Below, one piece after another: positions 42,837 through 64,000 of a stretch of DNA of 64,000 bases (its first letter is position 1; each line of letters starts with the position of its first letter). The position numbers were made by a program, and so were the translations under genes. The notes beneath the pieces are model-generated. The model was not told the DNA's origin. It did not search any database and saw only the letters and a list, made by a program, of their open reading frames with translations. Source of the DNA: an uncultured Clostridia bacterium (GTDB lineage Bacteria > Bacillota > Clostridia > Christensenellales > UBA1242); NCBI GenBank assembly GCA_934746515.1, contig CAKVFH010000002.1, positions 1,576-65,575 on the forward strand. Reading direction: 5' to 3'.

Positions 42837-43278
42837 TCTTTCCTTTGTTCCTTAAAAATAATATGCTAATGCAAAATAAAATCGCGCCGATAGTGATTGC
42901 AAAATCTGCAAGATTAAAAATCGCAAAATTCATAAATTTTAGATAAATAAAGTCTCTAACACCTTTAAAAATCAGTCTATCAATTGCATTTGAAATTGTT
43001 CCACCCAAAATTAAACCTATTGCGATTTTTTCAAATTTTCCGTTTAGCCATTTTTTTGAGCAAATCAAATAAACAAAAAATGCAGACGCAACAATTGCAA
43101 TCACAAAAAACACCCAGCTGTTGCCTTCAAACCACGAAAAAGCAACACCTGTGTTTAGGGTGCTTTCAAACCACAACAAATTGCCAATGATGCTTCTTGA
43201 TGCCGTGCCATAAACCAAAAACTTTGTTAGCTGATCAATGCCGACAATCAAAAAAGCGCAAATTAACCCAATAATCAT
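42823..43278 (-). CDS. lspA: lipoprotein signal peptidase (signal peptidase II)
   Basis: 151 aa with 4 TM helices and the motifs NTGVAFS, NAIDRL..VRDFI and FNLADFAI. Confidence 0.9.
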   Translation of the reverse strand: MIIGLICAFLIVGIDQLTKFLVYGTASRSIIGNLLWFESTLNTGVAFSWFEGNSWVFFVIAIVASAFFVYLICSKKWLNGKFEKIAIGLILGGTISNAIDRLIFKGVRDFIYLKFMNFAIFNLADFAITIGAILFCISILFLRNKGKNDRT

Positions 43279-43393
43279 AACTAAAGTGTATCACAATAAA
43301 CATAAAAAAACAACAAATAAAAAAGAGTCATGACCCAAAAATAATAATCTTTGAATCAATAACTCTTAATTTTATTTTATTTGACAAAATTTG

Positions 43394-46300
43394 CTATTTC
43401 ATATTGTATGCCGATTTATAATCTGCAAGCTTTGCTTCAATTTCTTCAGGCGAACCGCCACCCTTTATTGCAGACATAAGCGCAGCCTTTGCGGCATCTT
43501 GCTGAACACCAATACCGATTTGTTTTAGTTTGCTAATAGATTGTTTGGCAACAGCACTGCCTGGAAAATTATCTCCAATCTTTTTAAGGGTTTCTTTGCT
43601 CTTTTCTGCAACATTTTTAAGCGCTTTGTGTGGGAAAAACACCATATTGAATGTTCTTGTAACAGTTTTTAATGTCTTTTTAACGGCATCAATTGGGCTG
43701 TCTTCCAAAACACCAGGTCCAAGGCCAACAACCGTTTGAATTGCGTCATAGAATGTTGGATTTGATGAATCTGACTTGCCTGATGGAACTATAACTGAAA
43801 ATGCTGCAATTTCAAATATGATTCTTAAAATCTTATTTAAGTATTCGCTTATTCTCAAATAGTTAGGCTCAAAATAGAAATTTCCAACATTTAAAATTGT
43901 CCAAGGATTGTAAAGCGCGTTAGCAATTCTGCCAAGAGCTTTGTTACTTTGAAGATTTGCGGCAGTGAAAATTTGCATTTTATCAATAACTGGAATAATA
44001 ATAAATACAAAATTCAAACTTAAAATTATACCAAATGTTGAGAAAATCAATTGCAAATATTTTTGCATCCATTTCGAATAACTGCCACTCTTTTGAGTTT
44101 TTTCATCATCAAGCGGCATCGTCGCGCATGCAAGCGGATATATCATAATCATCAAGAAAATGTTTATTGACCTGTTTATTAAGCCAAAGACAGCAGTAAC
44201 TAAAACTTTGAAAAATACAACTGAACCAACAACCAAAACAATATAGTTTATGCTCATTGAATCAAATAAACAATTTAGATCCATTCCATACATTTTGGAA
44301 CTTAACTTCGACGACAAGCTATCTGCAAAGAAATAGCTTAAATGCAGTTTTCCATCTTTCAAAACATACACACTTGTCGTTTTGTTTGTGTAAGTTGTTG
44401 AAACTGTTGAATCATCAAGTTGCAAATCCGGCACAAGTTTCAATGGATTAAACAGACCTGAAACAAATTTTTTCACAGAATTCCAGGCACCTGAAATTGC
44501 GGAGCCAACTTTCTGGAAAACATTTTGTTTTTCTCCACTTTCTGATCCGTTTTCTTCCCCTTCAACTTCGATTTCTTCAAGTTTTCCAATATCGGAAACC
44601 GAACCATTAGAAACTAACTCAAGGTCATCACGATAAAACATAATGTTACCATTTGAAAGTCTGCGAATCGCTGTTGGATAAGATGATTTATCAAACAATC
44701 CCCTAGCTGTTATAATGCTTGCTGTCTGAATATATGTGCTAGTAAAAGCAGGGTTGCCATTCACACCAACACCAACCGCAAGTGGCAAATAGTATTCTTT
44801 TATCGAATTACTATAAAGGTCGTCGTACCCAAAACGGATTTTAACATAATTACCTGACTCATCTCTATAATAAAATTTATCTTTCAATGTGTCAGTTACT
44901 TTGCGATATGCATCGCCAATTTTATAATAATACTCTTTTGTTGAATCATAGCTTGCAACTTTTTTGTAAACTTGTCTGTCTTCATCGTAGATATAATAAA
45001 GATCAACTTTTTTGTATCTAGAACTGCTAGATTCCTTAAAATAATATATGTCTGCTTGTTTATATTCATTTGAAGCAGTTTTATAGTGATCACCATTTAA
45101 GCTCTTTTCAAAGTCATCACTAAAAGTGTTTTTATAAGCAACAACAAACTTTGCACCTTCAAACTCATCAACAGCATCTTTAACATGGGTATAGGTGTAA
45201 GTTCCACCTTTTGTATATTTGCTGACATATCTAATGTAAGAATAAGTCAAACTGTCTTGACCTAAAACGCATTTTCTCATGTTTTCATAAGAAATATTTC
45301 CAACACCATCAACAAACAATGTTCCGCTATTGCTATTCAAAAGTCTAATATTATAGCCGCTAACAACTTCTTTAAATTTATCAGCATCATTTGCGGCAAG
45401 TGACTCAAGCAGTTCTTGGATTGTTACAAAATAGTATTCTTCCATTGTGTCAAGCGCATAGCCAATAACATCTGACATAACATAATATTCATTTGCATTT
45501 GTCACAAGTTTTTTATATTTGCCTGCACCTGTTGTTGTTTCGCTATATTCGTTGCTATGATCATAATACTTATAGTAAACACTATTTCTCCAAGCTTCTA
45601 CACCTGAATCATATTTACCCTTTTCAACCGTTGTGTCCGCTAGAACAGGATCACTAAATTCATTACCTATAAAAGTTTCATTTTCATCAAAATATAATAA
45701 ACTTGGAAATTTGTCATTTCCAATCATTTGGACAGTATAGTTTATAGCTTTATCTTTATCGTCGCCTGTAAAGTTGAATTTTATTGGAATTCTGACTCCA
45801 TTTTCTGCATAAAGTCGATATTTATTCGCTGCAGAAGCTGAAGCATTGAACACTCTAGCACTCAACGACTTCGATTTTGACAAATTTGTTGCATTAAACA
45901 AAGCTTGCAACAAAACACTTGATGCCACAATAGAAACTATTGCAATAAGTGGTGTTAAAACAAGCATTAAAAATGATTTTAACACTCTTTTTAAAACATC
46001 ACCAGAAGGATTTTTCTTTGCTTTTTTATCCTTAAAAGCATCTGCCTGCGTTTTTATTATCGCAATTATTGCCGTTACAAGAATCAAAACTATCGCAATT
46101 GCAATAAAGTTTCTAATTATTGTTGTGACAGTTTCTTTGTTGTCTATCAGCAGTTTAAAAGTCATGTCCGAATTTGCTGAATCAATAATTGATGTATCTG
46201 CACTCACACCTGCTAGCTGCAGAATGTAAAAATAAATTACATCAACCATATACATGATCCACTTGCATGCAAAATACAATAGTTGCAAAACTGCTTTTAA

Positions 46301-46426
46301 AACTCTAGTCAAAATATTATCCGCTGATAAAAGCGATGAAATAAAACTATCAGAAGCCAAAAAAGCAGATGAATTATTATTCATCAAAAAATTTGGCAAT
46401 GATATAATATGATTTAAAATATTCAT
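43394..46426 (-). CDS. 1,010-aa polytopic membrane protein, short paralogue of the adjacent giant protein (VirB6-position component, family unknown)
   Basis: Uninterrupted 3-kb ORF; the ATG follows AAGGAG. It has TM helices at aa ~100-175 and ~725-880, a Tyr/Lys/Asp-rich central domain and an A/K-rich tail. Several blocks are colinear with 46445-57514 (see findings). Confidence 0.8.
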   Translation of the reverse strand: MNILNHIISLPNFLMNNNSSAFLASDSFISSLLSADNILTRVLKAVLQLLYFACKWIMYMVDVIYFYILQLAGVSADTSIIDSANSDMTFKLLIDNKETVTTIIRNFIAIAIVLILVTAIIAIIKTQADAFKDKKAKKNPSGDVLKRVLKSFLMLVLTPLIAIVSIVASSVLLQALFNATNLSKSKSLSARVFNASASAANKYRLYAENGVRIPIKFNFTGDDKDKAINYTVQMIGNDKFPSLLYFDENETFIGNEFSDPVLADTTVEKGKYDSGVEAWRNSVYYKYYDHSNEYSETTTGAGKYKKLVTNANEYYVMSDVIGYALDTMEEYYFVTIQELLESLAANDADKFKEVVSGYNIRLLNSNSGTLFVDGVGNISYENMRKCVLGQDSLTYSYIRYVSKYTKGGTYTYTHVKDAVDEFEGAKFVVAYKNTFSDDFEKSLNGDHYKTASNEYKQADIYYFKESSSSRYKKVDLYYIYDEDRQVYKKVASYDSTKEYYYKIGDAYRKVTDTLKDKFYYRDESGNYVKIRFGYDDLYSNSIKEYYLPLAVGVGVNGNPAFTSTYIQTASIITARGLFDKSSYPTAIRRLSNGNIMFYRDDLELVSNGSVSDIGKLEEIEVEGEENGSESGEKQNVFQKVGSAISGAWNSVKKFVSGLFNPLKLVPDLQLDDSTVSTTYTNKTTSVYVLKDGKLHLSYFFADSLSSKLSSKMYGMDLNCLFDSMSINYIVLVVGSVVFFKVLVTAVFGLINRSINIFLMIMIYPLACATMPLDDEKTQKSGSYSKWMQKYLQLIFSTFGIILSLNFVFIIIPVIDKMQIFTAANLQSNKALGRIANALYNPWTILNVGNFYFEPNYLRISEYLNKILRIIFEIAAFSVIVPSGKSDSSNPTFYDAIQTVVGLGPGVLEDSPIDAVKKTLKTVTRTFNMVFFPHKALKNVAEKSKETLKKIGDNFPGSAVAKQSISKLKQIGIGVQQDAAKAALMSAIKGGGSPEEIEAKLADYKSAYNMK

Positions 46427-46444
46427 CTGCTCTAGCTCCTTTTT

Positions 46445-49400
46445 TTATTCAAAATTCTTTTGGAAATCTTGTTTGAATTTTTGCATCTGCTCTTTATCTT
46501 TCTTCTTTGCTTCTTGCTTCTTTTTATCTGCTTCAGCAACTGCCGCACCTGCAGCTTTTGCTGTTACTGGGTCGATACCGGCTCCTTGAAGTGCCACTTC
46601 AATTGCTTTTTGTTCAGCTTGAATTTTGATATTTTTTACTTTATCAACCATAGGATCAACAAATTTTTCTTTTGCTGCCTTTCCAACTTCATAACCCGGA
46701 ATCATGCTCAAAGCAGTTTCTTTGGCTTCTTGCATCAAACCAAGCATAGCTTTTCCGCTGACAACAGAACCAATTTGAGCCGCTGTTTTTTCAACACTAC
46801 TCTTAACCTCTTTTGCTTTATCCAAGAACTTTCTGCTTCCTTCGCCAAGACCTGGGTCTGGAGATGAAAGGTTTCCATGGTTTGCCGTGATGATTGGTAA
46901 AATCAACTTTGGCATTCTTTCAAGAATTGAAACAGCAGTTATTACCCACAAACACCTTACAAGATTGTTGATTGTTGGATAGCTGAAGAATCCGCCAATT
47001 CCGCCAATTGAAACAATTTTGTTAAATGTTTCGACAGATACGAAAGTTTTAACACTATATATCATTGGAACAATAATCGTAAACGATGAAAATCCTATGA
47101 TATATCCAAACACACCCAGAAGCACACTTTCGATGTTTTTCTTCCAGTTTGTGTATGTTTTATTTTTTCCGTCAGGATACAACGAATTGGTAGATATAAC
47201 AAGTGGACTGGCGATAAACAAGACAATAAGATCAAATATTCTCGTCACAACACCACCCAAAGCATTTATCATAACAGGAATAATTGTGACGAATGCTAAC
47301 ATCAATAGAACCCATGTCTGTCCGCCAAACAAATAAAAGTATGAGAAATCATCAAGCACGTCAATTGCACCGAACTCATCTGATTGAAGCATTAAATATT
47401 CAACTTTCGATTGCACAAAATTTGTGTTTACATCTGACTTAACAATGGTTTTTAAATTTGTTTTGCCAGTGTAAGTTGTGGCAGAACCAATACCCTTTGT
47501 ATAAGATGTTCCGCTGACATATTTTGTGTAATTTTTAGTTGTAATCCTGCTAACAGCCTTTGAAGCATCAATAAGGTCTTCACCTGAACCAAAGTTTCCG
47601 CCAACATTTGTTCTGTAATATGTAACAGCATTGTATGTTTCAGATGAGCTTCCAATCAATCTCTTTTGTTCAATAACCAAAGGATTGTTATATTTTCTAA
47701 TTGCCGTTGGATAGCCATCGGCAGTTATAACACCTTTCATAACAACAACATAACCACCAGTATCGTAATAATCGGTTACAAAAGGTTTGCTATCATAAAT
47801 TTTTTCTAAATATTCATCATATTTGTCTGATGAATATCTGTATGAGCCTGAACCTATCAAAGGATAATATAACCCATTTTTATAGGTGCAGACTATGAAC
47901 GAGTCACCATACGCTTCATCGTAATAATCACCCGTTCTAGTTCCTGAATATTGTCTCGTTAGCACTTCTCTAGTTGGTCTGTTTTCAAGCCCAGACAGTT
48001 TTTTAACAACTTCCAAAGTGTTGTCTGACAATGTAAATACTGCTTTCAAATCACCAGTTCCAGCATAATTTTCAACCTGCGACTTATCACCATTATTTGA
48101 ATTGTAAATCTTCACAATTTCCTGATAAGTAAGTGAATTATCTGCATTTCTTGTGATGTTTGCTTTTGGAATAATTCTTCCAACTTCTTTTCCATCTGAA
48201 GAAAAGTCAATTTGAAGCCCTATAAGATTGAAAAGTGCCATATATCTAGCAGATCTTTCTTCTGGTGTTTCTGAAGTGTTTTGTTCATTATCAATAAGTT
48301 TTTGAAGAACAATTCGTTTGAAGTCTTCATAGGTTATGTCTTCAAGTTCTTCTGCATCGACTTCGTTTGAGAATAAGTAAAGTGCCACAGCAACAAACTT
48401 GTCATGGACATTGTCTTTTCCGTCAATCAAGCGATTAACAATATTCGAGTCGATTTGTGATGCCATTATTGAATATAGCATCTCTTCTATGCTTGAAGCA
48501 GTTATTGTTGCACCAGTCGAGTCAATAAAACTGCAAGAAATAGCATCAGAAATCTTTACAGCATTAACCTTTCCTGTGTCAAGATCACCAAGATTTGTCA
48601 TGAAATAAATTTCAGCTGTTTCATCAGCAATCTTTGAAAGGAATCTGCGAAGTTCTGGCCAAGTGTCTAGGTTTGTCTTTAAAACCTTGTCAACATTGTC
48701 ATAAACTTTTGATGCTTTCACAATGCCTTCAAATTCGGCTGTTGTGTATTGAGCACCAACACCAACTTTTTCAAGGAATGCTCCACCATAAACATATTCT
48801 GCAAGTCTTGATGGATCTGTGTTACTTTTGAAAGTGTAATTTTTGTTTCTAACACTAAAACTATAGCCACTTGAAACATAGTTTGCACCAAATTGCGCCA
48901 AGGTGAAAGTGATGCTTCTCTTGTACATTTGGTCAATTCTTCTTTGTGCAGTGATATATTGGTTAATATTATATTTCAAATCTTGGAATGCAGATAAAAT
49001 TGCATCAAGCTGTGTATCTGAATAATAATGAGAAGTATCACCAATTTGTCTGTCACAACCATTGTCGGTAGTTTCACCTGGAAGAGTAAACCTGATTGCC
49101 TGAAGCTCGCCAATTATTGAATCAAGTCTTTCACTAAATTCAAGAATTTTTGCCCATGATGTTTCAGTGCTTAAGTCTGCAGGAAGAAGCTTGTCTATAA
49201 CATCTTTCAAAATATCAACGATTTGGAAAGATGAATCTTCAGAGAAAGACATTCTGAAATATATTGATACACTATTATCTTTAATGAAATCCAAGTCCGC
49301 TGTAAGTGATGCATTATTATCAAACAAATCATAAGCATTTACAATTGGAAGAATACCATTATCTCTAATAGAATCACCTATACTATCTTTAAAAGTATTT

Positions 49401-52400
49401 ATTTTATCTAAAATCTCAAGAAGAGATTTTAACTTCCCAACGATACCTTCGTTATTATTATCACTGAGAGCAATTCCTGGAAGATATAATCTAACAGTTG
49501 TTGCAAATGACAAGCCTTTGTAAAGAACTAATTTTGCTTTATCCATACCTGCAGTTTCATAGTATTGATCTGCGGTGTCAATATTCTCACCCTTTAAAAT
49601 ATTCCATCTTGAAATATTTCCGTCAATATAACTTTTATATTGGCTCAAATAAATTGGTTCACCTCTTCTGCCGAGTTCATATTTAATCTCCCAATAAACA
49701 TGAATCATGTAACAGAAAATATACTCTTTGCCTGCATAAGATTCAACTTCTTGTGATTCAGAATCTATAACCTTTCCACTTTCAGAAATTGTGTAGCCAT
49801 TATTATAAATATCTTTATAGTCATTATCCATTGCTTCAATAACTTCTTTTAAAGTCAATGTATAATATAAACTACTTGAAACCACAGTGTCATAATTATA
49901 TCCAAGCTTATCGCCTGCAGTGGTTTTATCTTTATATTTGCTGTAAGCCTTTTTAAAATTAAATGTAAAAGTTGGCTGATTATTTCCGCAATATTCGTTC
50001 TCATATCGAACAAGCTGTTCAAATGTTGCATATTCAAACGAATCAATTGTGTTACCTTCTTCATCTTTAAGGTTGTTTACATAGCTATAGTATGAAGCAT
50101 AGTCACCAACCGCGCTTGCAAGATATTCACCAATTGTGTATTCTGAATAAACTCTTGTTGCAACGGTGTAAAGATACTCGCCGATATCAGATCCCAACAA
50201 TAGTGTTGCGAGATATGATTTGTATGCGCAAAGTCTTAAACTGTTAGAACCAATGTCTTCACCAAATTCTGTTGCAAAGTCATCAATAATTGGTGCAAAG
50301 CATGAATTGAAATAATCCATGAATACTTCAGCTTCAAAAACCAAAGCATTGTAACATTCTTCACCCATGAGCGATAACATCAAAGCTCTGATTGTGTTTT
50401 TATCAAACACTGAACTATATTCATAGTTTGCATAAGAGTCTGAAACTTCAGTTGCAACTGACATAAAGAATTCTGAGAGAACCAAGCCAGCGGCTGTTGT
50501 ATTTGAAGAATTTTGTCCTGAAATATACAAGCCGTTTGTGTAAGCTGATGTAAATTCACCAAGTGTATCAAGCCAGCCATCTGTTGCGAGAAGCACTCCC
50601 CAGTTGAGATCTGGATAGTAAATTTGCATATCATTCATGAGTTTTTCAACCCAAGAAACAGTTTTTATAAGTGTTTTTACTGAATATTTACCAAATCTTG
50701 AAACATTGATTCTAAAGTTTGCATCAGCGACATTTGTGTCAATATATTTAAAATAAATAACATCACCAATTTGATAAGAAATGTTGTTTTTATCTCTAGT
50801 CACTTGCATAGATCCAACATAAGTTGGATTTAGTGATAAATCTAATGTCTCATAAAGCGCTCTAAAATCGTATTTATTGATGTTTGCATCACTTGCTGTA
50901 ACAAGCCCATTCAATGTTTTTGTTGGATCAACAGTGTCAGCCAAAGTCGTTTTGAGATCTTCATATTTGGTGGCATTCATTTTAGTAGTCTTTCCAACAT
51001 AAACATCGCCATTCTTCTCAACTATGCCAGAAATATTATAAAAATTATAGTTGATATACAAATAAATTTTATCACCATCAATATAGATGTCGTTAATATA
51101 GTAGTCATCCGTCATCAACTCTTCAAAAGACATACCTTTAAACTTGTTGTGTCTGATTCCTTCTCTTGAATATTCATAAACCATGATATAGTCTAGAACT
51201 GTCCAATTTGAAATATCTTTTAGTTTGAAGTCTTCAGATGAAAATCTCAAGTTTAGAGTACCACGCTCAAGAGATGATTCACCGGTTTTTATAGCTTCGC
51301 TAACAGTTTGTGGAACATTCATAAGACCAGAATCTTTCAAAATTTCTGAATTAAGGTTAAAGTAGAAATAGTTGTCAAATTCAAGGTCTGGGAACACTTG
51401 ACTATATTCAAGTTTCATAACAAGTGTGTTTGCAGGAGCTCCCGGATTGGTTGTACTTATTGCAATATCAAGTTCATTGACTTTTGTTGTTGTCAAATAA
51501 CCCTTTAAAAACTTGTCATAGAACTCAAAGAACTTGTTATAATTGAAATAAGAACCAGTTTTGCCAGTATCAATTGCGCTAAAATCAATAACCTTTTGTA
51601 TTGTTGTGCTTCCAGAAGTTTCATCTTCTTTATATAAATAATAAGTTCTAGCTGGCACACCACCGGCATTTGCAAAAGTTTGGAAATTTGTAGCTGTAAA
51701 TGTTGTTTTTAAAACATCAGTTCCGCTAATAAGAGAAGCTTTGTCTATCCAAGACCTAGTTTTAATCTCTTCAATCTTCTCACTCATTGTCTCATTTGTT
51801 AAAATTTCATCAATTTCAAGCGACTCAATCTGCATTTTCATAAAATTTAAAGCCACTTCATCTGAAATACAAATTACCTTATTTGTTTCTACTAAACCAG
51901 TTGTGTCAATCATTTCCAAATAATAATTTTTGGTTGCTTCTGAACCAGCAGTCGGATAGATGACATTAAATTTATAAGAACTTTTTGCAGAAGTTAAATA
52001 TTTATATTGAGTTACGCCATCAACAGTTTCCGTTCCATAAAATTTACTAAGAATAACATCCATATATGTTAATCCATAGTAGTTATCGCCTTCTTTTGAA
52101 AATTTTGGAACATATACAAATGGGAACGAAATTTTAAACTCACTATTACCAAAGTAGCCATTTGAGAATGCGTAATAAATAATATAGTCTGAAACTTTCC
52201 ATGTTGTGTAATCACTAACATCAAAAGCATCCGAGAAATCAACTTTCTGGAGTGCTCCACTTGTTGCTTTCCTTAAATTTTCATTTTCAAAAGTATCAAT
52301 ACCATCCGATATGGTTACATTTCCAATCAATTTACGTTGAACAGCACATGGTTTTATGGTTGTCAAGGCATACATAAGTTTAATAACACTTGTATCGACG

Positions 52401-57514: not shown

Positions 57515-57537
57515 TTGTTATGTTTTCTCCTTTTGGA

Positions 57538-60228
57538 TTATTTTGCGTCGTCTCTGAGTTTTTCGAATAAGTTTCTAACTCTGTCGTTAACCAAGACATC
57601 GACATTTGTTCTTGAGTAAGGACTTGTCATCAAGAACGCCCTACCACGAGGGTTTGTACAAATTGTGTCTTGCTCTTTTTCGTTGATTTTTCCGGCTTTT
57701 TCATAAAGAACAACCAAGTCGGTGATATCTTGTGGAGCAAGTGAGAAGATGAGTGAATATTGACAAGCATTGATAATAGCCATTGATTTTCTTGCAATTT
57801 CAGGCGAACCAGTAAAGTCTTTGATGTTCTGTGTGATAACAATTTGAGAACCTTCATATTTTCTGATACGTTTTGCCATTTGTTGCATGAAGTCAAGAGC
57901 AACGGTTTTTCTAGGATCGATGAATACATGGGCTTCATCGATAACTACAATAACTTTTCTTTTTGTGTGGAATCTCGCGTTGTAATCCTTGTTATTGATA
58001 ACTTCGTTGTTAAGCCAACGCATAACCAAAAGCATTTGCGCATTTGCAACAGCGCCGGCATTATTTGCAAGAAGTGATTGGAAGTTAAACACGATGAAGT
58101 TTTCTGCTGAAGAAATTGTTGATGGACCATTCCAAAGAACCGCGTTTCTTCCGCCTTCAGCAAATTTATTAAGATAGATTTTCAAAATCTTATAGTTGTT
58201 TCTGTTATAATCATCTGTTGAGTTTTCATAAAGCTCACAAATGTAGTTGTAAAGGTCTTGCATGATTGGGAACTGCTCTGGCTTTACATTTTCAATTTGA
58301 GTTGAATTTGTGATACCAAACTTACCATAAAGCTCTTTTAATGCTTCATTCAAAAGTTCCATGCCGTCCATTGTAATACCATCAAGAATCATTCCGAAGA
58401 ATGTTTCCAAGAACTGCATGTGCATAGCAAGAGCAACATTACCGCCACCTGCTTCTTCATCGTCTTGAGAAGCATTAACTTGAAGTGGATTGATACGACC
58501 TTCACGAGCAGAACCTACATCAATAACTTTTCCGTACATATTTTTAGCAATGATGTCATATTCTTTTTCAGGGTCGAGAATGAAGATTTTACTGTTATCA
58601 GCAGCAAGGTTTGCAAGGATTGATTTGGTACAGAATGATTTACCGCAACCAGATTTACCCATGATAACCATGTTTGAATTGATACGCTCTTTGTCTCTTT
58701 GGAAGAAATCCAAAAATACTGGTTCAGAGTTCATACCAACATAGAAGCCTTTAGGGTCTTGAATAGCATCTGAAACAAATGGGAAAATTGCTGCAAGTGA
58801 TGAAGAATTCAAACCTCTTTCAAAACGACGAAGTTTCATACGTCTTGAAACATTGCAGTTTGTGAAACCTTCTTTTTGTTTTCCGAAAAGGTCGTAGCAT
58901 CTAAAACCTGCACGAAGAACTTGTGTTCTAAATGCTTTCTTTTGTTCTTGTTCAACCATCATATAGATGTTTGTATCCAAAAGCATTTCTGAACCTTGCT
59001 TAATATAGGTTAAAAGCTCTGTCAAAGTTTTTAAGTGGGTTTCATTTTCCAAAACCGCAGAAGCCTTTGCACTGCCTTCAGAACCCGCCATTCTAACATT
59101 GATGATAGCCTTATCCAAACGCTTTTCAGCTTCATCTTGACCAACTGGTTTAAACTTAACGCAAACTTTGGCGCCAGGAACAGAGAAGAATGCTCTTCCC
59201 CAAGCATTTGGAACAGACAATGGATATTCAGAAAGTTGGAATACTGTTTGCGCTTTTCCATCAATTGAAAGTCTGTTTAAACCAAAGGTAACTTTGTCTG
59301 GAGCAACCCAGTCCAAAAGTTCTTTTGGATCAAGTTTTTTAACATCTCTTTCATCAAAATTCGAATTATAAAAACTCTTTAAGAAAATTGCTGTTTGGTT
59401 TCTGTCAAGAATTTTTGGTTCAATTGCACCGCCAGAACCACTTTCAATTGTGCTTGCTGCAAAGTTTACAACTTGCAAAAGGTTTTTAATGTTTTGACAG
59501 AAGAACGCAATATACATGTGGTCTTTGATAACAGGAAATTCACTGTCAACATTCATTTGCTCAAGGTTTTGAATTCTGGCTTCAGCGATTTCAAGTCTTG
59601 GTCTAGCTTCGTTAATGTTTGTTGAACCATTTCTAACTGAATCAAGAATTTCTTCTCTCTTTTTGCATTCGTTGTCAATGTAGTTATCAAAAACCATAGG
59701 TCTTGAAAATTTGTAAATTGCACCAAGTTCATCTGTGCCGATTGTCTTGAATGCATTTTCCAAAGTTTCAATATATGAATTTTGTCTGGTTTCAGAAATC
59801 AAATAAAACTGGATTGAGTTAAGTTCGATTGCTGCACCAAAATATTCTTTGTAATCAATAATACCGATTTTTCTCTTTTCGTCGTAATCTTGTTCCAAGA
59901 TGCCAATGTATGGGAAAAGTGCTTTTACGTCTTTGTTTGAGCCAGAAGATTTTTTCATTCTTTTGTAGGTGTTTATACCAAAGAAATATTTAAACAAATC
60001 ACCCACTTGATTATACATTTTTACGCCTGGTTCAAAACTCATAAAAAGAATACCAAAAACAAGACCAGTGACACCAGTTAGTACAAGTTTTGTTACAGTC
60101 GAAAAACCACTTGTCCAAGCAAGTGCAAGAATAATAAGTGCGAATAAAATGACAAAAATGTCTCCAAAATTCAAACCCTTAATAAACTCAACTTTAACTT
60201 TAGTTGACTTAGGTATCATTCTCTCCAT
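57538..60228 (-). CDS. VirB4/TraE-like T4SS ATPase with N-terminal VirB3-like membrane hairpin
   Basis: 896 aa from the ATG at 60228, 9 nt after AGGAGAA (the ORF-track start at 60306 is TTG). It has two TM helices near the N-terminus, Walker A GKSGCGKS (58636-58659), ILDPEKEY and Walker B VIVVIDEAH (57928-57954), then ..QIVITQNIKDF. Size and motif order fit VirB4-class members of the FtsK/HerA superfamily. Confidence 0.75.
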   Translation of the reverse strand: MERMIPKSTKVKVEFIKGLNFGDIFVILFALIILALAWTSGFSTVTKLVLTGVTGLVFGILFMSFEPGVKMYNQVGDLFKYFFGINTYKRMKKSSGSNKDVKALFPYIGILEQDYDEKRKIGIIDYKEYFGAAIELNSIQFYLISETRQNSYIETLENAFKTIGTDELGAIYKFSRPMVFDNYIDNECKKREEILDSVRNGSTNINEARPRLEIAEARIQNLEQMNVDSEFPVIKDHMYIAFFCQNIKNLLQVVNFAASTIESGSGGAIEPKILDRNQTAIFLKSFYNSNFDERDVKKLDPKELLDWVAPDKVTFGLNRLSIDGKAQTVFQLSEYPLSVPNAWGRAFFSVPGAKVCVKFKPVGQDEAEKRLDKAIINVRMAGSEGSAKASAVLENETHLKTLTELLTYIKQGSEMLLDTNIYMMVEQEQKKAFRTQVLRAGFRCYDLFGKQKEGFTNCNVSRRMKLRRFERGLNSSSLAAIFPFVSDAIQDPKGFYVGMNSEPVFLDFFQRDKERINSNMVIMGKSGCGKSFCTKSILANLAADNSKIFILDPEKEYDIIAKNMYGKVIDVGSAREGRINPLQVNASQDDEEAGGGNVALAMHMQFLETFFGMILDGITMDGMELLNEALKELYGKFGITNSTQIENVKPEQFPIMQDLYNYICELYENSTDDYNRNNYKILKIYLNKFAEGGRNAVLWNGPSTISSAENFIVFNFQSLLANNAGAVANAQMLLVMRWLNNEVINNKDYNARFHTKRKVIVVIDEAHVFIDPRKTVALDFMQQMAKRIRKYEGSQIVITQNIKDFTGSPEIARKSMAIINACQYSLIFSLAPQDITDLVVLYEKAGKINEKEQDTICTNPRGRAFLMTSPYSRTNVDVLVNDRVRNLFEKLRDDAK

Positions 60229-60315
60229 AAATGTAAATTCTCCTATATATAATAGTATATAACTTTCGCGTTTTTCAAGCAAATATATACTTGCATTTTG
60301 TGACAAAAATATGCT

Positions 60316-62661
60316 TTATTTTTTATTTTTTGCCAGTGTTACATCACCAATTTCGACATTCATTGATTTTAATTTTTTAATTAAATCACTTTCAATTTTT
60401 GTGAGTCTTTGATTATATTTTTCAAGTTCATTTATAATCGCTTCTTCATACGATTTTGCAGGGCCTTCCATTTGAGATTTAAAGAATTTTTGAGTCTTCT
60501 TTAAGTCACGAATATTCGAACCAAAATCATCTTCAAGTTTGTCTTCAAGTTTTGCAATATAATCGATAATCTCTGTGCAATTTGTGCCAGCAAAAGTAGC
60601 TTTCATATTTTGAACTTGGTTTTTAAAATTCATAATGAAAGAAGCAACAATCTTTTCAATTTGTTTTCCTTCAATTGTGCCCTTTTCAATGTAATAAACT
60701 TCACCAAAAGCATCAACAGCAGGAAATGCGTATTTGTCAAGCACACTCTTTGAAGTGTTGAATGAAACTGCTTTGCTGGACTCTGAAGTGATTGCCTTGC
60801 TGATTTGCTGTGAAGCAAAATTATTTTCAAACGAAACCTTTCTTTGCATCGCGCTGTCAAGGGACGATTTGATAATTGCCATCTTTTTATTGTGCGAGTT
60901 GATGTCTTTGATAATCTTCTGCATTTGATTGTTATTTTCGTAAGAATAAGGCTTGCTTGTATAAGATTCAAGGTTTTCGCTGAGCTTATCCACAACAGAT
61001 TTTTCATAGATATATTTTGCATTCAATTCTTTCACTGACTGCAAAATTCGTTTGTATAATTCACCCTGCTCTTGACCTAAAGTGTCAACCACATTTTTAA
61101 TTTCTCTTGAAGCGATTTTTTCATCACGATCAATCAATATGCCACTGAGTCTTTCAAGTTTTTCTGTTCCAAGCGAGAAAAATTTGTTTCTATGCACAGT
61201 TTCTTCAAGTTTTTCAATGCGATCTGCAATAAACTTTTTAAGTTCGCTTTTCTTTGAACTTTCGGATTTTTTATCAAAATTTTTCTTATCTTTTTGAATG
61301 TATTCTGTGAACTCTTTTTGCAGATTAGAGTTTAAACTTTCAAATATACTTTCATAACCAATCAAATCTTCACGAAGCGATATGTTTTTAAGTTCTCTGT
61401 CGTATTCTTTAACCTTCATCGCGTCAAGATTTTTCTCTGTTTGAGTTTTTGCATTTGTTAATTGCTTGCCCAAAAATCCAGTGCAAACAGAAACTGACGC
61501 TGGAATATAAAATGAACGATATCTTAATCTAAAATTCACCTTTCTGAGTTCTTCATCAAATTGTTTTTCAATTTCATGTTCTTGCACAGAAATTGGGCTT
61601 GAAGAAAGATTTTGACTTCTAAAAGAAAGTGCGTTGCTAACCTTTTGATTATAAAGCTTGTCTGCGATTTCTGGGAAATTTTGTTCAAATTCAATGGCAA
61701 ATTGTCTGCCATTGCCCTTATAAAACTTAACGAAATTGTCAAATTTTTCACGCATAACATTTAGTTCAATTAGTCTAGCCTTATTCTTTTCGTCTCTTGA
61801 TTCGTCAGTCTTTGTTTTTGAGAATAATTCACTCCCCTTAACGAGTTTCATTTTATTCATTTGAAGACCTGAAGCACTTACAACTGACTTAACTGTTGTG
61901 AACTTTTTTGATCCGTTTCTATATGAAGTTTGATTGTTTAAGAAACCATATTTTTCCAAATATGTTTCCATTTTTTGTTTACTGTCTTGCCTAACCTTTG
62001 TTTCAGCAACTCTTTGAAGTTTATCAAGTTTTTCAGCAAACATTTTAATTCTAATTTTTATTAAAGCTTTCTTTTGATCATCTGTTAAATTTTGAAACTT
62101 GAATTGATCGCCAATAACATTGCCGTTTTTGTCAAGCTGTCTATCGTACTCTTTTAAAAAGTATTTGTTAGACATTCTGTCAAGATTGATACTTGCAATT
62201 TTGCTGAAATAGGTTTCAATAAAATTGTTAAAATTAGGTCCAAATTCAATCCTGTCGTTTCTAATAGCTTTTGTTGAATTATATCTTTCAATTTGTGCTT
62301 CAATTTCTTCCAGATTTTTCTTATGAAGTTCTTTAAATTTTTCAGGAATAGTTCTTTTAAAAGTGTCTCTTTCCAAAGGTATTGAAGAAAGAGAGCCAAC
62401 ATCTCTTAAAAATGATACAACTATATTTTTATTTTTTGGATAACTAACCATAGTGTAGTCATTCAAAACTACACTATAGTTATCCAATTCTTTTAAAGCT
62501 TGTTTTTTCAGCTGTTCCTGTCTTTTTTGATAGGCTTTCTTTTCTTCTTCAGACATTTGTTCGTAGTTTTTTGGCAGCTTAAAATCAATGACTTGCCTAC
62601 TCAGCTCATCAATTTGTTTTTTTAGCTGTTTAATTTCTTCTAAAATTTCTTCATTTTCCAT
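60316..62661 (-). CDS. 781-aa soluble K/E-rich, coiled-coil-looking protein
   Basis: Uninterrupted ORF; the ATG follows GGAGAT. There is no TM segment or signal peptide, but there are long heptad-like K/E/L/I stretches. I recognise no enzymatic motif. Confidence 0.7.
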   Translation of the reverse strand: MENEEILEEIKQLKKQIDELSRQVIDFKLPKNYEQMSEEEKKAYQKRQEQLKKQALKELDNYSVVLNDYTMVSYPKNKNIVVSFLRDVGSLSSIPLERDTFKRTIPEKFKELHKKNLEEIEAQIERYNSTKAIRNDRIEFGPNFNNFIETYFSKIASINLDRMSNKYFLKEYDRQLDKNGNVIGDQFKFQNLTDDQKKALIKIRIKMFAEKLDKLQRVAETKVRQDSKQKMETYLEKYGFLNNQTSYRNGSKKFTTVKSVVSASGLQMNKMKLVKGSELFSKTKTDESRDEKNKARLIELNVMREKFDNFVKFYKGNGRQFAIEFEQNFPEIADKLYNQKVSNALSFRSQNLSSSPISVQEHEIEKQFDEELRKVNFRLRYRSFYIPASVSVCTGFLGKQLTNAKTQTEKNLDAMKVKEYDRELKNISLREDLIGYESIFESLNSNLQKEFTEYIQKDKKNFDKKSESSKKSELKKFIADRIEKLEETVHRNKFFSLGTEKLERLSGILIDRDEKIASREIKNVVDTLGQEQGELYKRILQSVKELNAKYIYEKSVVDKLSENLESYTSKPYSYENNNQMQKIIKDINSHNKKMAIIKSSLDSAMQRKVSFENNFASQQISKAITSESSKAVSFNTSKSVLDKYAFPAVDAFGEVYYIEKGTIEGKQIEKIVASFIMNFKNQVQNMKATFAGTNCTEIIDYIAKLEDKLEDDFGSNIRDLKKTQKFFKSQMEGPAKSYEEAIINELEKYNQRLTKIESDLIKKLKSMNVEIGDVTLAKNKK

Positions 62662-62703
62662 TAACCTATCTCCAAAGTTTTATTTTGTGATATTTATTAA
62701 CTG

Positions 62704-64000
62704 CTATTTTTTCTTTTTGCTTGCAGCGTATTCTCTTCTGAGACTAGCAATCTGTGATTCTAACCTGCTTATTTTTGAAGCAAGTGCTGCATTGTGATTG
62801 CTATAGATTCTATTTGCAATTGTTGGGTCGTTTAATCTCTTGTCTACATTTGTTTCAACCAAAACTCTAACATCATCACCATTAAGGAAATTATTAAATT
62901 GTTGTTTAACAGTTGTTTTTGTTATGTTTTTGATTACAGATTGGAGTTTCTCATCAGTTTCCAGTTTGCTTGTGAGATCTCTCATAAGATCGTCAACATC
63001 AGCATTTTTGTCGGTTTTTACACCCATCATTTTCTTAAGAACACCCTTAAGAGAATCTTTCATTTTTCCTGCAAATGTTGGGTTTTGATATTCAAGATTA
63101 TCAATCGTTCTGCTGTAATTAGCAAAGTTAGCCGTATCGGCAAATTCAAATTTTCCTGCTTTATTTTTCTTCAAAAGTTCATTCGTTCCCAATTTTTCAC
63201 GAAGCTCATCAATATGATCATTGATGTATTTGTTGACTTGCTCTCTGGTCATCTTTTTAAATCTTTCTTCGAACAAGTTGCTGTCTTGGTTTAAAAGTTC
63301 CCTTTGAATGAGTTTCTTAAATTCTGCATCAGTATAGAACTCACGAATCATTGTGTTGACGAAAATTTTCTTCATTACAGGATTGTTGATAACATGATTT
63401 GCACGAGCTTGACGATATCTTCTTCTGTCAAACATGTGTTCAGGTCTGTGAGCACCAACTTCAATGAGTCTTTCTCTAACAGGCTCGCCTTGTCCAGATC
63501 TCAAGAATGCACTGATTTGCGCTTGAGTTAGACCCATTTTAACATCATAGTTTGTTGCAGTGCTTGAATTAGAAATAATTTTCTTTTCAAACAAATCATT
63601 AAGTTTTGCTGTGTCAATTTTGTTTCCTTTAACAAATTTTTCATCCTTCAAAACTTCTTTAATTCTTTGAGATTTTTCAGTATTTGAAAGTCTTTCAAAA
63701 TCAATACCACTAGATTTCAAGTAATCTTTGATCTTTGTGAATGTTTCTTGATTTTGCGCAGAACTTAACACAGAAACCATTGCTCTTCCGGTAAATTCAG
63801 CATTATTCTTTAATGCTTGAACTTTGGCATCGAAGATTTCTTTTTCGCTTGCATTTGGATTGTTGTTTGACAAGATTCGTCTGATAGACTCACTATCATT
63901 GATGAGTGTTACATTTCTGAACAAGTTTGCAAACTCTTCAGAATTTTCGTTATGTCTGTAGTATTGTTGAAGCATTGATTTATTTGCAGAATATTCGCCT
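62704..64000 (-). CDS. soluble K/E/N-rich protein, 5' end outside the window
   Basis: The reading frame stays open from the stop at 62704 to the window edge; there is no in-frame stop between the ATG at 63975 and 64000. At least 423 aa are visible. No TM segment or recognisable motif. Confidence 0.6.
   Translation of the reverse strand, partial: GEYSANKSMLQQYYRHNENSEEFANLFRNVTLINDSESIRRILSNNNPNASEKEIFDAKVQALKNNAEFTGRAMVSVLSSAQNQETFTKIKDYLKSSGIDFERLSNTEKSQRIKEVLKDEKFVKGNKIDTAKLNDLFEKKIISNSSTATNYDVKMGLTQAQISAFLRSGQGEPVRERLIEVGAHRPEHMFDRRRYRQARANHVINNPVMKKIFVNTMIREFYTDAEFKKLIQRELLNQDSNLFEERFKKMTREQVNKYINDHIDELREKLGTNELLKKNKAGKFEFADTANFANYSRTIDNLEYQNPTFAGKMKDSLKGVLKKMMGVKTDKNADVDDLMRDLTSKLETDEKLQSVIKNITKTTVKQQFNNFLNGDDVRVLVETNVDKRLNDPTIANRIYSNHNAALASKISRLESQIASLRREYAASKKKK

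What the first reader, a model, noticed from the sequence alone, without database searches (positions are those of the whole stretch)
43394..64000. Candidate undescribed T4SS-derived envelope system: VirB4-like ATPase plus two giant paralogous polytopic proteins plus K/E-rich soluble proteins
Seen: five co-directional ORFs are separated by only 18-87 nt. They are 62704-64000+ (open at the window edge), 60316-62661, 57538-60228, 46445-57514 and 43394-46426. The third encodes an ~896-aa ATPase with Walker A GKSGCGKS, ILDPEKEY, Walker B VIVVIDEAH and an N-terminal two-helix membrane hairpin; this is the layout of VirB4/TraE-class type IV secretion ATPases. Established: in Gram-positive conjugation modules (ICEBs1 conE-conG, Tn916 orf16-orf15, pCW3 tcpF-tcpH), the gene after virB4 encodes the polytopic VirB6-like channel component. 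Here that slot holds two paralogues of 3,689 and 1,010 aa. Each has TM bundles at both ends, huge Tyr/Asn/Thr-rich central domains (about 3,200 and 530 aa) and A/K-rich tails. The 20.6 kb in view shows no relaxase, VirD4-type coupling ATPase, cell-wall hydrolase, VirB8-like protein, integrase or flanking repeat, and the composition matches the flanking core genes. Inference: this is a domesticated or divergent T4SS-like machine whose membrane component has been enormously expanded. It might be a surface fibre, adhesin or contact-dependent apparatus rather than a plasmid-transfer channel. I cannot tell from sequence alone whether this family has been described.
Basis: partly seen in the sequence, partly recalled or inferred. 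Interest (0 to 1): 0.9.

Follow-up and report, generated by a model that had tools for sequence, protein, structure and literature searches.

The report
Chromosomal secretion machine with giant proteins
An uncultured group of gut Clostridia carries, at a fixed place in its chromosome, a complete type IV secretion machine related to the one on mycoplasma mobile elements. Its membrane-channel protein has been triplicated and enlarged to as much as 3,800 residues, which suggests a conjugation machine taken over for a cellular job.

Summary
Five tightly spaced minus-strand genes encode a VirB4 ATPase, two paralogous polytopic giants (3,689 and 1,010 aa) and a coiled-coil protein. The ORF cut by the window edge is not a separate soluble protein: it is the tail of a third giant paralogue of 3,839 aa.

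A contig 95.6% identical to the window (L035) shows the rest of the cluster, about 36.7 kb. It adds a VirD4-type coupling ATPase, two VirB2-like pilins and a membrane-anchored surface protein.

Curated models place the ATPase, pilins and giants closest to the mycoplasma ICE genes Mbov_0397, Mbov_0395 and Mbov_0396 (the CDS16-CDS17 region), in the same order.

It is not an ordinary ICE. I found no relaxase, integrase or flanking repeats. The cluster sits between murI and lspA in every species checked. The two ATPases are 79-84% identical between species whose neighbouring housekeeping proteins are only 39-60% identical. The giants have diverged to 26-47%.

Most likely this is a vertically inherited monoderm T4SS. 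Its VirB6-like subunits would also form the wall-spanning and surface contact structure. The substrate is unknown.

The closest analogues are the relaxase-less T4SS of Patescibacteria and the VirB6 expansions of Rickettsiales. I found no published description. Verdict: new variant of a known kind, interest about 0.7.

The parts
43394..46426 (-). Paralogue C, 1,010 aa. VirB6/CDS16-like polytopic protein: three N-terminal TM helices, an ectodomain of about 530 aa, a C-terminal TM bundle and a helical tail. Last gene of the cluster.
   Evidence: NF045848 MMCAP2_0566_fam scores 85.7 bits (cutoff 90) and NF045889 Mbov_0396 scores 65.2 (cutoff 70). Paralogy to giant B is shown. The AF2 model has pLDDT 77.5 and pTM 0.70. 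TM scan. The family has 1,111 representatives at 50% identity with E<=1e-3. Orthologues in two other species also lie directly before lspA.
46445..57514 (-). Giant B, 3,689 aa. Same N- and C-terminal TM modules as C, separated by a Tyr/Asn/Thr/Ser-rich ectodomain of about 3,230 aa.
   Evidence: It has no Pfam domain at E<=0.1. Orthologues are 26-47% identical and occupy the same position after virB4 in about 20 species. The gene has 33 TGG codons and no TGA, so code 11 applies.
49955..50722 (-). Conserved module of about 250 aa inside the giant B ectodomain (residues 2265-2520). Its motif is NW.QKLMND..V.YPDLNW..L.ATDGW.DTLGE. Function unknown.
   Evidence: Dense invariant columns across 15 orthologues. 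It is also present at 26-35% identity in 14 other family members. It has no Pfam or PDB relative. The AF2 model is helical but only pLDDT 61, and Foldseek found no match.
57538..60228 (-). VirB4-type T4SS ATPase, 896 aa, with a fused N-terminal two-helix (VirB3-like) membrane hairpin.
   Evidence: NF045975 VirB4_plasma (Mbov_0397 family) scores 566 bits over profile positions 3-893 of 894 (cutoff 590). NF045971 CD1110 scores 156 bits. Pfam gives P-loop_TraG, DUF87 and AAA_10. PDB 4AG5, the VirB4 C-terminal domain, matches at E 1e-53. TM hairpin at residues 24-63.
60316..62661 (-). P781: K/E-rich helical protein of 781 aa with no TM segment. It is a detached piece of the cytoplasmic tail of giant A.
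   Evidence: No family hit and no TM segment. It aligns to the C-terminal 700-780 aa of single ORFs of more than 3,290 aa in L006, L012, L014, L016 and L018, and of P0122, P0154 and P0157.
62704..64000 (-). C-terminal 432 aa of giant A, the third paralogue (3,839 aa in L035). The rest lies beyond the window.
   Evidence: P0146 is 94% identical to the 2,358-aa gene call in L001 and 93% identical to the upstream TM-domain fragment. The gene is L035 10001-21520. NF045848 scores 95.3, above the cutoff of 90, at residues 1002-1170. DNA identity between L035 and the window is 95.6%.
42823..43278 (-). lspA (signal peptidase II). This is the conserved downstream border of the cluster, not part of the machine.
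   Evidence: TIGR00077 scores 97 bits. The same order, giant B, C, lspA, rluD, is seen in L036 and L037.

Best explanation
The window holds the downstream two-thirds of a nine-gene cluster of about 36.7 kb. The cluster is fixed in the chromosome and encodes a monoderm type IV secretion system.

Components shown:
- A VirD4-type coupling ATPase.
- A VirB4 ATPase with a fused VirB3-like hairpin.
- Two VirB2-like pilin proteins.
- Three paralogues of the mycoplasma-ICE CDS16 (VirB6-like) polytopic protein. Their extracellular loops have grown to about 530, 850 and 3,230 aa.
- A signal-peptide, C-terminally anchored surface protein.
- A coiled-coil protein that in other species is the cytoplasmic tail of giant A.

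Proposed mechanism (inferred):
- The TM modules of the three paralogues, together with the pilin-like hairpins, form the membrane translocon. VirB4 and the coupling protein dock onto it.
- The giant ectodomains replace the missing VirB1/VirB8 cell-wall complex. They span the peptidoglycan and project from the surface as a fast-evolving contact or adhesion structure.
- The coupling protein feeds a cytoplasmic macromolecule through this channel to a contacted cell.

The cluster is inherited vertically at one locus and has no relaxase, integrase or att sites. It therefore serves the cell rather than a mobile element. I lean towards protein or other non-self-mobilising cargo exchanged with neighbouring bacteria or the host, but the substrate is not determined.
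For: Component identities:
- VirB4: NF045975 scores 566 bits over the full profile, with Walker motifs, and PDB 4AG5 matches at E 1e-53.
- T4CP in the contig 95.6% identical to the window: Pfam T4SS-DNA_transf 154 bits plus TraG-D_C and TrwB_AAD_bind; NF045973 scores 251.3, above the cutoff of 250.
- Pilin-like genes: NF045849 scores 42.2 (cutoff 40) in L031 and 37.2 in L035; PF18895 also hits.
- Giants: NF045848 scores 95.3 for A (cutoff 90), 85.7 for C and 52.9 for B.
- The gene order pilin, TM protein, VirB4 mirrors Mbov_0395, 0396 and 0397.

Topology:
- Two to three N-terminal TM helices, an ectodomain, then a C-terminal TM bundle.

Fixed locus:
- holA, M28 peptidase, rpsT and murI lie upstream in four species.
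- lspA, rluD, tig and clpPX lie downstream in three (window).

Conservation between species:
- T4CP 79-84% and VirB4 80-83% identical.
- murI 39-50%, M28 peptidase 40-45%, holA 57-60%, rpsT 73-82%.
- Giants 26-47%.

Breadth:
- The same A, VirB4, B, C architecture occurs in a second clade whose ATPase is about 61% identical.

Absences:
- No relaxase, integrase, VirB1 or VirB8 model hit any cluster protein.
- No junction repeat of 16 bp or more.

Host: it is walled, with murA, murD, murE, mraY, ftsW, a PBP and murI.
Against: - No function was tested and no substrate or effector was identified.
- 'VirB6-like' rests on gene position and on homology to mycoplasma CDS16, which is itself only proposed to be VirB6-like (PMC12857230). 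The AF2 model of paralogue C has no Foldseek match in the PDB (best E 0.75).
- A relaxase could be encoded elsewhere in the genome, or be too divergent to detect. Mycoplasma ICEs also lack a recognised relaxase yet do conjugate (PMC6030558).
- The coupling protein belongs to a conjugative family (CD1115), which favours DNA as cargo.
- Nothing shows directly that the ectodomains cross the wall.
- The upstream part of the cluster comes from a 95.6%-identical contig, not from the window itself.
Confidence: 0.55

Rival explanations
1. A chromosomally fixed conjugation apparatus dedicated to DNA. The T4SS would export or transfer chromosomal DNA, by Hfr-like or mycoplasma-chromosomal-transfer-like 'sex' or by DNA release, using a relaxase encoded elsewhere or an unrecognised one.
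For: All recognisable parts belong to conjugative families: Mbov_0395, 0396 and 0397 from mycoplasma ICEs and the CD1115-type T4CP with its TraG-D_C domain. Mycoplasma ICEs drive chromosomal transfer without an identified relaxase (PMC6030558, PMC12857230). Nearly all known Gram-positive T4SS move DNA (PMC12857230).
Against: No relaxase, SSB, primase, partition or oriT-like feature was found in or next to the cluster in four species. ATPases conserved as strongly as a ribosomal protein, at a fixed locus, are not what facultative sex systems usually show. The comparable relaxase-less T4SS of Patescibacteria is thought to be co-opted for other functions (PMC12102498).
Confidence: 0.25
2. A surface-fibre or adhesin assembly system. 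The giants themselves would be the product. The two ATPases would serve only to insert, extrude or remodel these enormous membrane proteins, and nothing would be translocated to another cell.
For: About 8,500 of the cluster's 11,785 residues are in the three giants. Their ectodomains evolve fast like surface antigens or adhesins. Giant A carries a helical tail of about 1,950 aa, and P781 is a detached piece of it that could engage the ATPases. More distant homologues of the ATPase sit beside other giant or coiled-coil proteins without any CDS16-like partner.
Against: A VirD4-type coupling protein with its substrate-recognition domains is retained at 79-84% identity. In known systems this protein exists to recruit cargo. 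Pilin-like subunits are retained too. No T4SS is known to work purely as an assembly chaperone.
Confidence: 0.12
3. An ordinary integrative conjugative element, or a recent remnant of one, whose relaxase and integrase lie outside the sequence examined.
For: The core genes are homologous to ICE genes.
Against: Both borders are housekeeping genes, and they are the same in every species examined. No integrase, DDE transposase or relaxase was found. No att-like repeat was found. Composition is uniform. All giant ORFs are intact across about 20 species. Divergence is heterogeneous: ATPases about 80% and giants about 30-45% identical. That pattern fits long vertical descent rather than recent spread.
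Confidence: 0.04

Closest known systems
Mycoplasma integrative conjugative elements (MICE, e.g. ICEA of M. agalactiae and the ICE of M. bovis). Conjugative module: CDS15 (Mbov_0395, pilin/VirB3-like), CDS16 (Mbov_0396 / MMCAP2_0566, 8-TM VirB6-like), CDS17 (Mbov_0397, VirB4), plus CDS5 (VirD4).
   Same: The VirB4 is homologous over its full length: 566 bits to the Mollicutes-specific model against 156 bits to the C. difficile-type model. The TM module of the giants and the pilin-like proteins hit the Mollicutes ICE models. The gene order is the same. A VirD4 is present. As in MICE, no VirB1, VirB8 or recognisable relaxase is present (PMC6030558, PMC12857230).
   Different: The host is a walled Clostridia lineage, not a wall-less mollicute. 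There is no DDE transposase (CDS22), no inverted repeats and no CDS14 lipoprotein. The locus is fixed between core genes and inherited vertically. The CDS16 homologue is triplicated and carries ectodomain insertions of 530 to 3,230 aa, where the NCBIfam CDS16-family models are only 306 and 322 positions long. The T4CP is of the CD1115 (Clostridioides) type. The ATPase score falls just below the equivalog cutoff (566 against 590).
Chromosomal, relaxase-less T4SS of Patescibacteria/Saccharibacteria, essential for epibiotic growth of Southlakia epibionticum (Wang et al. 2023; Quinonero-Coronel et al. 2025, PMC12102498).
   Same: It is a monoderm T4SS derived from Gram-positive conjugation machinery. 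It is chromosomal and lineage-wide, and most clusters lack a relaxase. VirB4 and a T4CP are retained. VirB2-like pilin genes (PF18895) occur in tandem. It is inferred to have been co-opted for a non-conjugative role.
   Different: It belongs to a different phylum. Patescibacterial loci have VirB1-, VirB3-, VirB6- and VirB8-like genes of ordinary size. No giant VirB6 paralogues are reported there. Here there are only two pilin genes rather than arrays of up to 11, and no evidence yet of an epibiotic lifestyle.
Rickettsiales vir homologue (rvh) T4SS with duplicated, extended VirB6 paralogues, e.g. Anaplasma phagocytophilum VirB6-4 of up to 4,322 aa (PMC7648143, PMC2653234).
   Same: It is a chromosomally fixed, vertically inherited T4SS with several tandem VirB6 paralogues carrying huge hydrophilic extensions. 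It is not associated with self-transfer.
   Different: It is a diderm, VirB/D4 (MPF-T) system with an outer-membrane core complex, and it is an effector translocator in obligate intracellular bacteria. I tested no sequence relationship to the giants here. The Anaplasma VirB6-4 extensions are described as C-terminal (PMC7648143), whereas here the main expansion is an extracellular loop between TM blocks.
Gram-positive ICE and plasmid T4SS of the MPF-FA/FATA classes: ICEBs1 ConE/ConG, Tn916 Orf16/Orf15, pCW3 TcpF/TcpH, pCF10 PrgJ/PrgH.
   Same: The MPF-FA 'extended VirB6' proteins are already 700-900 aa (PMC12857230). A VirD4 is present.
   Different: Those systems are on mobile elements with a relaxase, an integrase or replicon, a VirB1-type hydrolase and VirB8-like proteins. 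None of these was detected here. Here the VirB6-like proteins are four to five times larger and triplicated.

Membership tests
Type IV secretion system (monoderm / Gram-positive minimal set) | VirB4-family ATPase | tested here: met
   NF045975 scores 566 bits over the full length. TIGR00929, NF045971 and Pfam P-loop_TraG also hit. PDB 4AG5 matches at E 1e-53. Walker A and B motifs are visible in the sequence.
Type IV secretion system (monoderm / Gram-positive minimal set) | VirD4-type coupling protein (T4CP) | tested here: met
   It is not in the window. In the 95.6%-identical contig it is L035 6311-8269 (-). Pfam T4SS-DNA_transf scores 154 bits, with TraG-D_C and TrwB_AAD_bind. NF045973 scores 251.3 against a cutoff of 250. 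Orthologues are present in three more species.
Type IV secretion system (monoderm / Gram-positive minimal set) | VirB6-like polytopic channel subunit | tested here: inconclusive
   The giants hit the CDS16-family models: NF045848 scores 95.3 (cutoff 90) for A, 85.7 for C and 52.9 for B. CDS16 is only 'likely VirB6-like' (PMC12857230). The AF2 model of C (pLDDT 77.5) found no PDB structure, VirB6/TrwI included, at E<0.75.
Type IV secretion system (monoderm / Gram-positive minimal set) | VirB3-like small membrane hairpin (free or fused to VirB4) | tested here: met
   Two TM helices occupy residues 24-63 of the ATPase, ahead of the soluble domains. Two separate 2-TM pilin/VirB3-like genes also lie upstream.
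Type IV secretion system (monoderm / Gram-positive minimal set) | VirB1-like peptidoglycan hydrolase and VirB8-like (NTF2-fold) wall complex | tested here: not met
   No hydrolase (SLT, CHAP, NlpC/P60, LytM) or VirB8/TcpC/PrgL model hit any of the nine cluster proteins in Pfam or NCBIfam. Divergent domains hidden in the giants cannot be excluded.
Integrative conjugative element (ICE) | Integrase/recombinase (tyrosine, serine or DDE) and excision junction repeats | tested here: not met
   No recombinase was found in the cluster or in 4 kb or more of flanks in four species. The longest match between the two junction regions is 14 bp, and it lies inside coding sequence.
Integrative conjugative element (ICE) | Relaxase (MOB) and DNA-processing genes | tested here: not met
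   No relaxase model hit. The protein of about 700 aa next to the T4CP has a signal peptide and a C-terminal TM anchor, so it is a surface protein and not a relaxase. The rest of the genome was not searched.
Integrative conjugative element (ICE) | Variable presence or insertion site; composition or phylogeny discordant with the host | tested here: not met
   The murI and lspA borders are the same in all species examined. GC content is uniform. The ATPases are more conserved than the flanking housekeeping proteins, while the giants are much less so.
Mycoplasma ICE (MICE) conjugative module | CDS17 / Mbov_0397-family VirB4 (NCBIfam equivalog NF045975) | tested here: inconclusive
   It scores 566.3 bits against a curated cutoff of 590. 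The alignment covers the full length and this is by far the best family, but the score is just under the equivalog threshold.
Mycoplasma ICE (MICE) conjugative module | CDS22 DDE transposase, terminal inverted repeats, CDS14 lipoprotein, mollicute host | tested here: not met
   None was found in the cluster or its flanks. The host has a full peptidoglycan and dcw gene set and uses genetic code 11.

The most novel reading that the evidence does not exclude
This is a lineage-defining, non-conjugative T4SS of a walled Firmicute clade. Under this reading the conjugation machine was captured by the chromosome. Its VirB6 subunit was triplicated and inflated into surface fibres of thousands of residues that cross the wall. 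It now mediates an obligatory cell-cell interaction, either effector or nutrient exchange with other gut bacteria or with host cells, as proposed for Patescibacteria. It would be a clear case of a dedicated, vertically inherited effector or contact T4SS in classical Gram-positive bacteria, with a new solution to crossing peptidoglycan.
Probability: 0.35. Interest if true: 0.85.

Novelty: new variant of a known kind. Interest (0 to 1): 0.7.

Why it matters
A 2025 review (PMC12857230) calls it a long-standing open question whether Gram-positive T4SS have evolved into dedicated non-conjugative machines. It cites only the S. suis 89K island and the Patescibacteria system as examples.

This cluster is a candidate from abundant, uncultured gut Clostridia of humans and livestock. 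It is fixed in the chromosome, and its two ATPases are about as conserved as ribosomal protein S20.

It also shows that the 'minimal' mycoplasma ICE transfer module has close relatives outside Mollicutes. In addition, it offers an extreme natural experiment on what an extended VirB6 can become: three paralogues totalling about 8,500 residues.

The fast-evolving ectodomains are likely major surface antigens or adhesins of these gut bacteria. All of these proteins are currently annotated only as 'hypothetical' or 'DUF87 domain-containing'.

Tried and rejected
- **Exact look-up of the truncated edge ORF:** not on record.
- **The search for homologous proteins with the C-terminal TM fragment of giant A from L001:** no hits. 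The gene is split there by an assembly gap and was never called.
- **JGI metagenome scan with the N-terminal module:** the first alignment was too divergent. The second found pattern matches but no true relatives.
- **Structure route to function:**
  - The AF2 model of paralogue C is usable (pLDDT 77.5), but Foldseek against the PDB gave nothing below E 0.75.
  - The conserved ectodomain module of giant B folded with only pLDDT 61 and also gave no match.
  - A profile search of the PDB with the B-ectodomain alignment gave only a chance ferritin hit.
- **Pfam on all three giants, P781 and the surface protein:** no domain.
- **The protein of about 700 aa next to the T4CP:** considered as a relaxase candidate and rejected. 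It has a signal peptide, a Tyr/Asn/Thr-rich body and a C-terminal TM anchor.
- **Mollicute host with code 4:** rejected. There are 33 TGG and no TGA codons in 3,689 codons, and full peptidoglycan genes are present.
- **att-like flanking repeats:** none of 16 bp or more.
- **Promoter and terminator scan of 43000-46600:** uninformative.
- **Taxonomy beyond 'uncultured Clostridia':** not resolved. Looking up RGIG MAG names in the catalogue paper's supplements found nothing. TANB77 (PMC11680825) is only an untested guess. That paper's 'conserved pilin' belongs to a Tad-type pilus unrelated to this cluster.

Full report
**1. The observation**

All five ORFs are real and lie on the minus strand:
- 43394-46426 (1,010 aa)
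- 46445-57514 (3,689 aa)
- 57538-60228 (896 aa; a longer TTG start at 60306 is possible but not used by gene callers)
- 60316-62661 (781 aa)
- 62704 to beyond 64000

The gaps between them are 18, 23, 87 and 42 nt, which points to one operon. An uninterrupted ORF of 11 kb in 32%-GC DNA cannot be chance. It contains 33 TGG and no TGA codons, so the standard bacterial code applies.

The ATPase carries the quoted Walker A and B motifs and an N-terminal hairpin of two TM helices at residues 24-63.

The 3,689-aa and 1,010-aa proteins are paralogues in two separate modules:
- an N-terminal module, residues about 37-340, E 4e-17
- a C-terminal TM module, residues about 728-986, E 1e-12

Between these modules lie central regions rich in Tyr, Asn, Thr and Ser.

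Downstream are lspA, rluD, two small ORFs, tig, clpP, clpX and ysxC. GC content is flat across the window. No tRNA or Rfam element is present.

**2. What the parts are**

- **ATPase.** Pfam recognises only the ATPase (P-loop_TraG, DUF87, AAA_10). NCBIfam is more informative. The ATPase aligns end to end (profile 3-893 of 894) with NF045975, the 'Mbov_0397 family ICE element conjugal transfer ATPase'. It scores 566 bits against a cutoff of 590. The C. difficile CD1110-type VirB4 model scores 156 bits. The only PDB relative is the VirB4 C-terminal domain 4AG5 (E 1e-53).
- **Giants.** Both hit the models for the membrane protein encoded next to virB4 in mycoplasma ICEs: NF045848 (MMCAP2_0566 family) and NF045889 (Mbov_0396 family TM protein). 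That protein is CDS16, an 8-TM protein essential for ICEA transfer and regarded as the likely VirB6 equivalent (PMC6030558, PMC12857230).

**3. Beyond the window edge**

An exact-match look-up of the 781-aa protein returned contigs of the same organism. In L001 the upstream reading frame is broken by an assembly gap that sits inside a repeat.

A representative-library search with the 1,010-aa protein returned P0146, 3,839 aa. P0146 is 93-94% identical to both fragments on either side of that gap. Its contig L035 is a 327-kb scaffold, 95.6% identical in DNA to the window over 11.3 kb. L035 gives the whole cluster:

- holA, a 191-aa protein, an M28 peptidase, rpsT(-) and murI(-) as the upstream flank
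- a 709-aa surface protein (-) with a signal peptide and a C-terminal anchor
- a VirD4-type coupling protein of 652 aa (-)
- a pilin-like gene of 99 aa and another of 110 aa
- giant A, 3,839 aa
- P781
- VirB4
- giant B
- in the window, C followed by lspA

The supporting scores are:
- **Coupling protein:** it passes the curated cutoff of NF045973 (251.3 against 250) and has the Pfam domains T4SS-DNA_transf, TraG-D_C and TrwB_AAD_bind.
- **Giant A:** it passes the cutoff of NF045848 (95.3 against 90).
- **Pilin-like genes:** they hit NF045849, the 'Mbov_0395 family pilin-like conjugal transfer protein', at 42.2 (cutoff 40) in L031 and 37.2 in L035. They also hit PF18895 T4SS_pilin.

The order pilin, TM protein, VirB4 is therefore collinear with Mbov_0395, 0396 and 0397.

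The window's edge ORF is the C-terminus of giant A. P781 is fused to the end of that protein in many other species.

Giant A has this layout:
- the family N-terminal module
- an ectodomain of about 850 aa
- the TM module at residues 1,002-1,170
- three repeats of about 230 aa that contain glycine-rich TM hairpins
- a helical tail of about 1,950 aa rich in K, E, A and Q

**4. Is it a mobile element?**

No model for a relaxase, integrase, DDE transposase, VirB1 hydrolase or VirB8 hit any cluster protein.

The only unassigned protein next to the T4CP is clearly a surface protein.

The two junction regions share nothing longer than 14 bp.

The cluster occupies the same place wherever I could see the borders:
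- The upstream flank, holA, M28 peptidase, rpsT and murI, is identical in L031, L033, L034 and L035.
- The downstream flank, lspA, rluD (then tig, clpP and clpX), is identical in the window, L036 and L037.

A scan of species-representative genomes found the ATPase at 77-92% identity in about 20 uncultured 'Clostridia' MAGs from human, mouse, ruminant and bird guts. The order giant, (coiled coil), VirB4, giant is conserved in them.

Identity between species:

| Protein | Identity between species |
|---|---|
| T4CP | 79-84% |
| VirB4 | 80-83% |
| rpsT | 73-82% |
| holA | 57-60% |
| murI | 39-50% |
| M28 peptidase | 40-45% |
| pilin-like proteins | 47-64% |
| surface protein | 32-40% |
| giants | 26-47% |

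This is the pattern of long vertical descent. The motors are under very strong constraint and the exposed parts evolve fast. It is not the pattern of a recently spreading ICE.

A second clade, with an ATPase about 61% identical, has the same pilin, pilin, A, VirB4, B, C layout.

More distant homologues of the ATPase (38-46% identical) also sit among housekeeping genes. Their neighbours include PFOR, LeuS, the CCA-adding enzyme, HflX, UvrA, SecY, RpoA and GroEL. They lie next to other large or coiled-coil proteins, and no ICE genes are visible.

**5. The giant family**

The 1,010-aa protein has 1,111 relatives at E<=1e-3 among representatives clustered at 50% identity. They are 800 to 4,833 aa long and share the N- and C-terminal modules. 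None carries a name from any source.

The AF2 model of paralogue C (pLDDT 77.5, pTM 0.70) shows:
- three long N-terminal helices
- a mixed alpha/beta domain at residues 188-720
- four or five further long helices
- a helical tail

This fits an 8-TM CDS16-type core with the ectodomain inserted after the third helix. Foldseek found no PDB relative, so the VirB6 assignment stays indirect.

Giant B contains a strongly conserved module of about 250 aa (window 49955-50722) that recurs in other family members. I could not assign it a fold or function.

**6. Mechanism**

Shown:
- The parts list.
- The topology, at prediction level.
- The fixed locus.
- The conservation pattern.
- The host is walled: murA, murD, murE, mraY, ftsW, a PBP and murI are present.

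Inferred:
- The TM modules of A, B and C, together with the pilin/VirB3-like hairpins, form the translocon on which VirB4 and VirD4 act.
- The ectodomains substitute for the absent VirB1/VirB8 wall complex and form the wall-spanning, surface-exposed contact structure.
- The T4CP delivers a cytoplasmic macromolecule to a contacted cell.

The absence of DNA-processing genes and the vertical inheritance make self-transfer unlikely. I favour a cellular, non-self-mobilising role with confidence 0.55. The main rival is DNA-specific chromosomal transfer (0.25). Two weaker rivals are a pure fibre-assembly role (0.12) and an ordinary ICE (0.04).

**7. Comparison with known systems**

- By homology the core is closest to the mycoplasma ICE transfer module. 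It fails the defining mobile-element features of that family.
- By biology it most resembles the chromosomal, relaxase-less T4SS of Patescibacteria, which has tandem pilins (PMC12102498, PMC12857230).
- By architecture it parallels the Rickettsiales rvh system, whose VirB6 paralogues reach 4,322 aa (PMC7648143).

Full-text searches for a description of this Clostridia system found none. Public annotations say only 'hypothetical protein' or 'DUF87 domain-containing protein'.

**8. Verdict**

The system has a coupling protein and pilins, there are three giants, and the core matches a curated ICE family.

I classify it as a new variant of a known kind. It is of real interest to T4SS and gut-microbiome specialists, and I score it 0.7.

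Caveats:
- The upstream third of the cluster is taken from a 95.6%-identical contig, not from the window.
- The taxonomy is unresolved beyond 'uncultured Clostridia'.
- The function is wholly inferred.

Noticed in passing
L001 2700-2880; L035 14000-15900 (giant A, outside the window): Giant A contains three near-identical repeats of about 230 aa (about 690 nt) that encode glycine-rich TM hairpins. The L001 scaffold has an N-gap exactly there, and several other assemblies end inside this gene. As a result the gene is often split or left uncalled, and the 2,358-aa gene call in L001 is an artefact of the gap.
   Followed up: partly
window 49955-50722 (-), residues 2265-2520 of giant B: This is a strongly conserved, mostly helical module with many invariant Trp, Asp, Gly and Asn positions. 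It sits inside an otherwise fast-evolving ectodomain and is shared with 14 other family members. It has no Pfam, PDB or Foldseek relative. It may be a candidate for the missing wall-processing or receptor-binding activity.
   Followed up: partly
L026, L028, L029, L030, L025 (ATPase 38-46% identical): More distant homologues of this VirB4-like ATPase in other uncultured Clostridia sit singly among housekeeping genes, for example directly after the SecY to RpoA ribosomal region in L030. They are followed by an unannotated or coiled-coil protein of 870-890 aa, or by an unrelated giant of more than 3,300 aa. No CDS16-like partner, T4CP or pilin lies within 10 kb.
   Followed up: partly
L039 (ATPase about 61% identical): A second, well-populated clade has the same layout: two pilin-like genes, giant A (2,799 aa), VirB4 (919 aa), giant B (2,057 aa) and C (at least 1,262 aa). 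NCBI names its ATPases 'DUF87 domain-containing protein'.
   Followed up: partly
L035 8564-8863 (pilin-like, 99 aa): The first pilin-like protein also matches positions 64-115 of the MMCAP2_0566 (CDS16) profile weakly (E 0.029). This hints that the pilin/VirB3-like hairpin and a hairpin of the CDS16 family may be related.
   Followed up: no
window 41204-41521 and 41540-41869 (-): Two small ORFs (105 and 109 aa) lie between rluD and tig with no NCBIfam hit. Two small genes (105-128 aa) lie in the same position in L036 and L037; I did not test whether they are homologous to the window's ORFs.
   Followed up: no
window 23373-25370 (-): A 665-aa ORF lies next to the dcw cluster (mraY, murD, ftsW, murE, a SpoVD-like PBP, rsmH). 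It has no NCBIfam hit at E<=1e-20.
   Followed up: no
L031, L033, L034 and L035, gene next to the T4CP (e.g. L035 4156-6285, -): This is a protein of 680-744 aa with a signal peptide, a Tyr/Asn/Thr-rich body and a C-terminal TM anchor. It is co-oriented with the T4CP. It is only 32-40% identical between species and has no family assignment. It is probably another exposed component of the system.
   Followed up: partly
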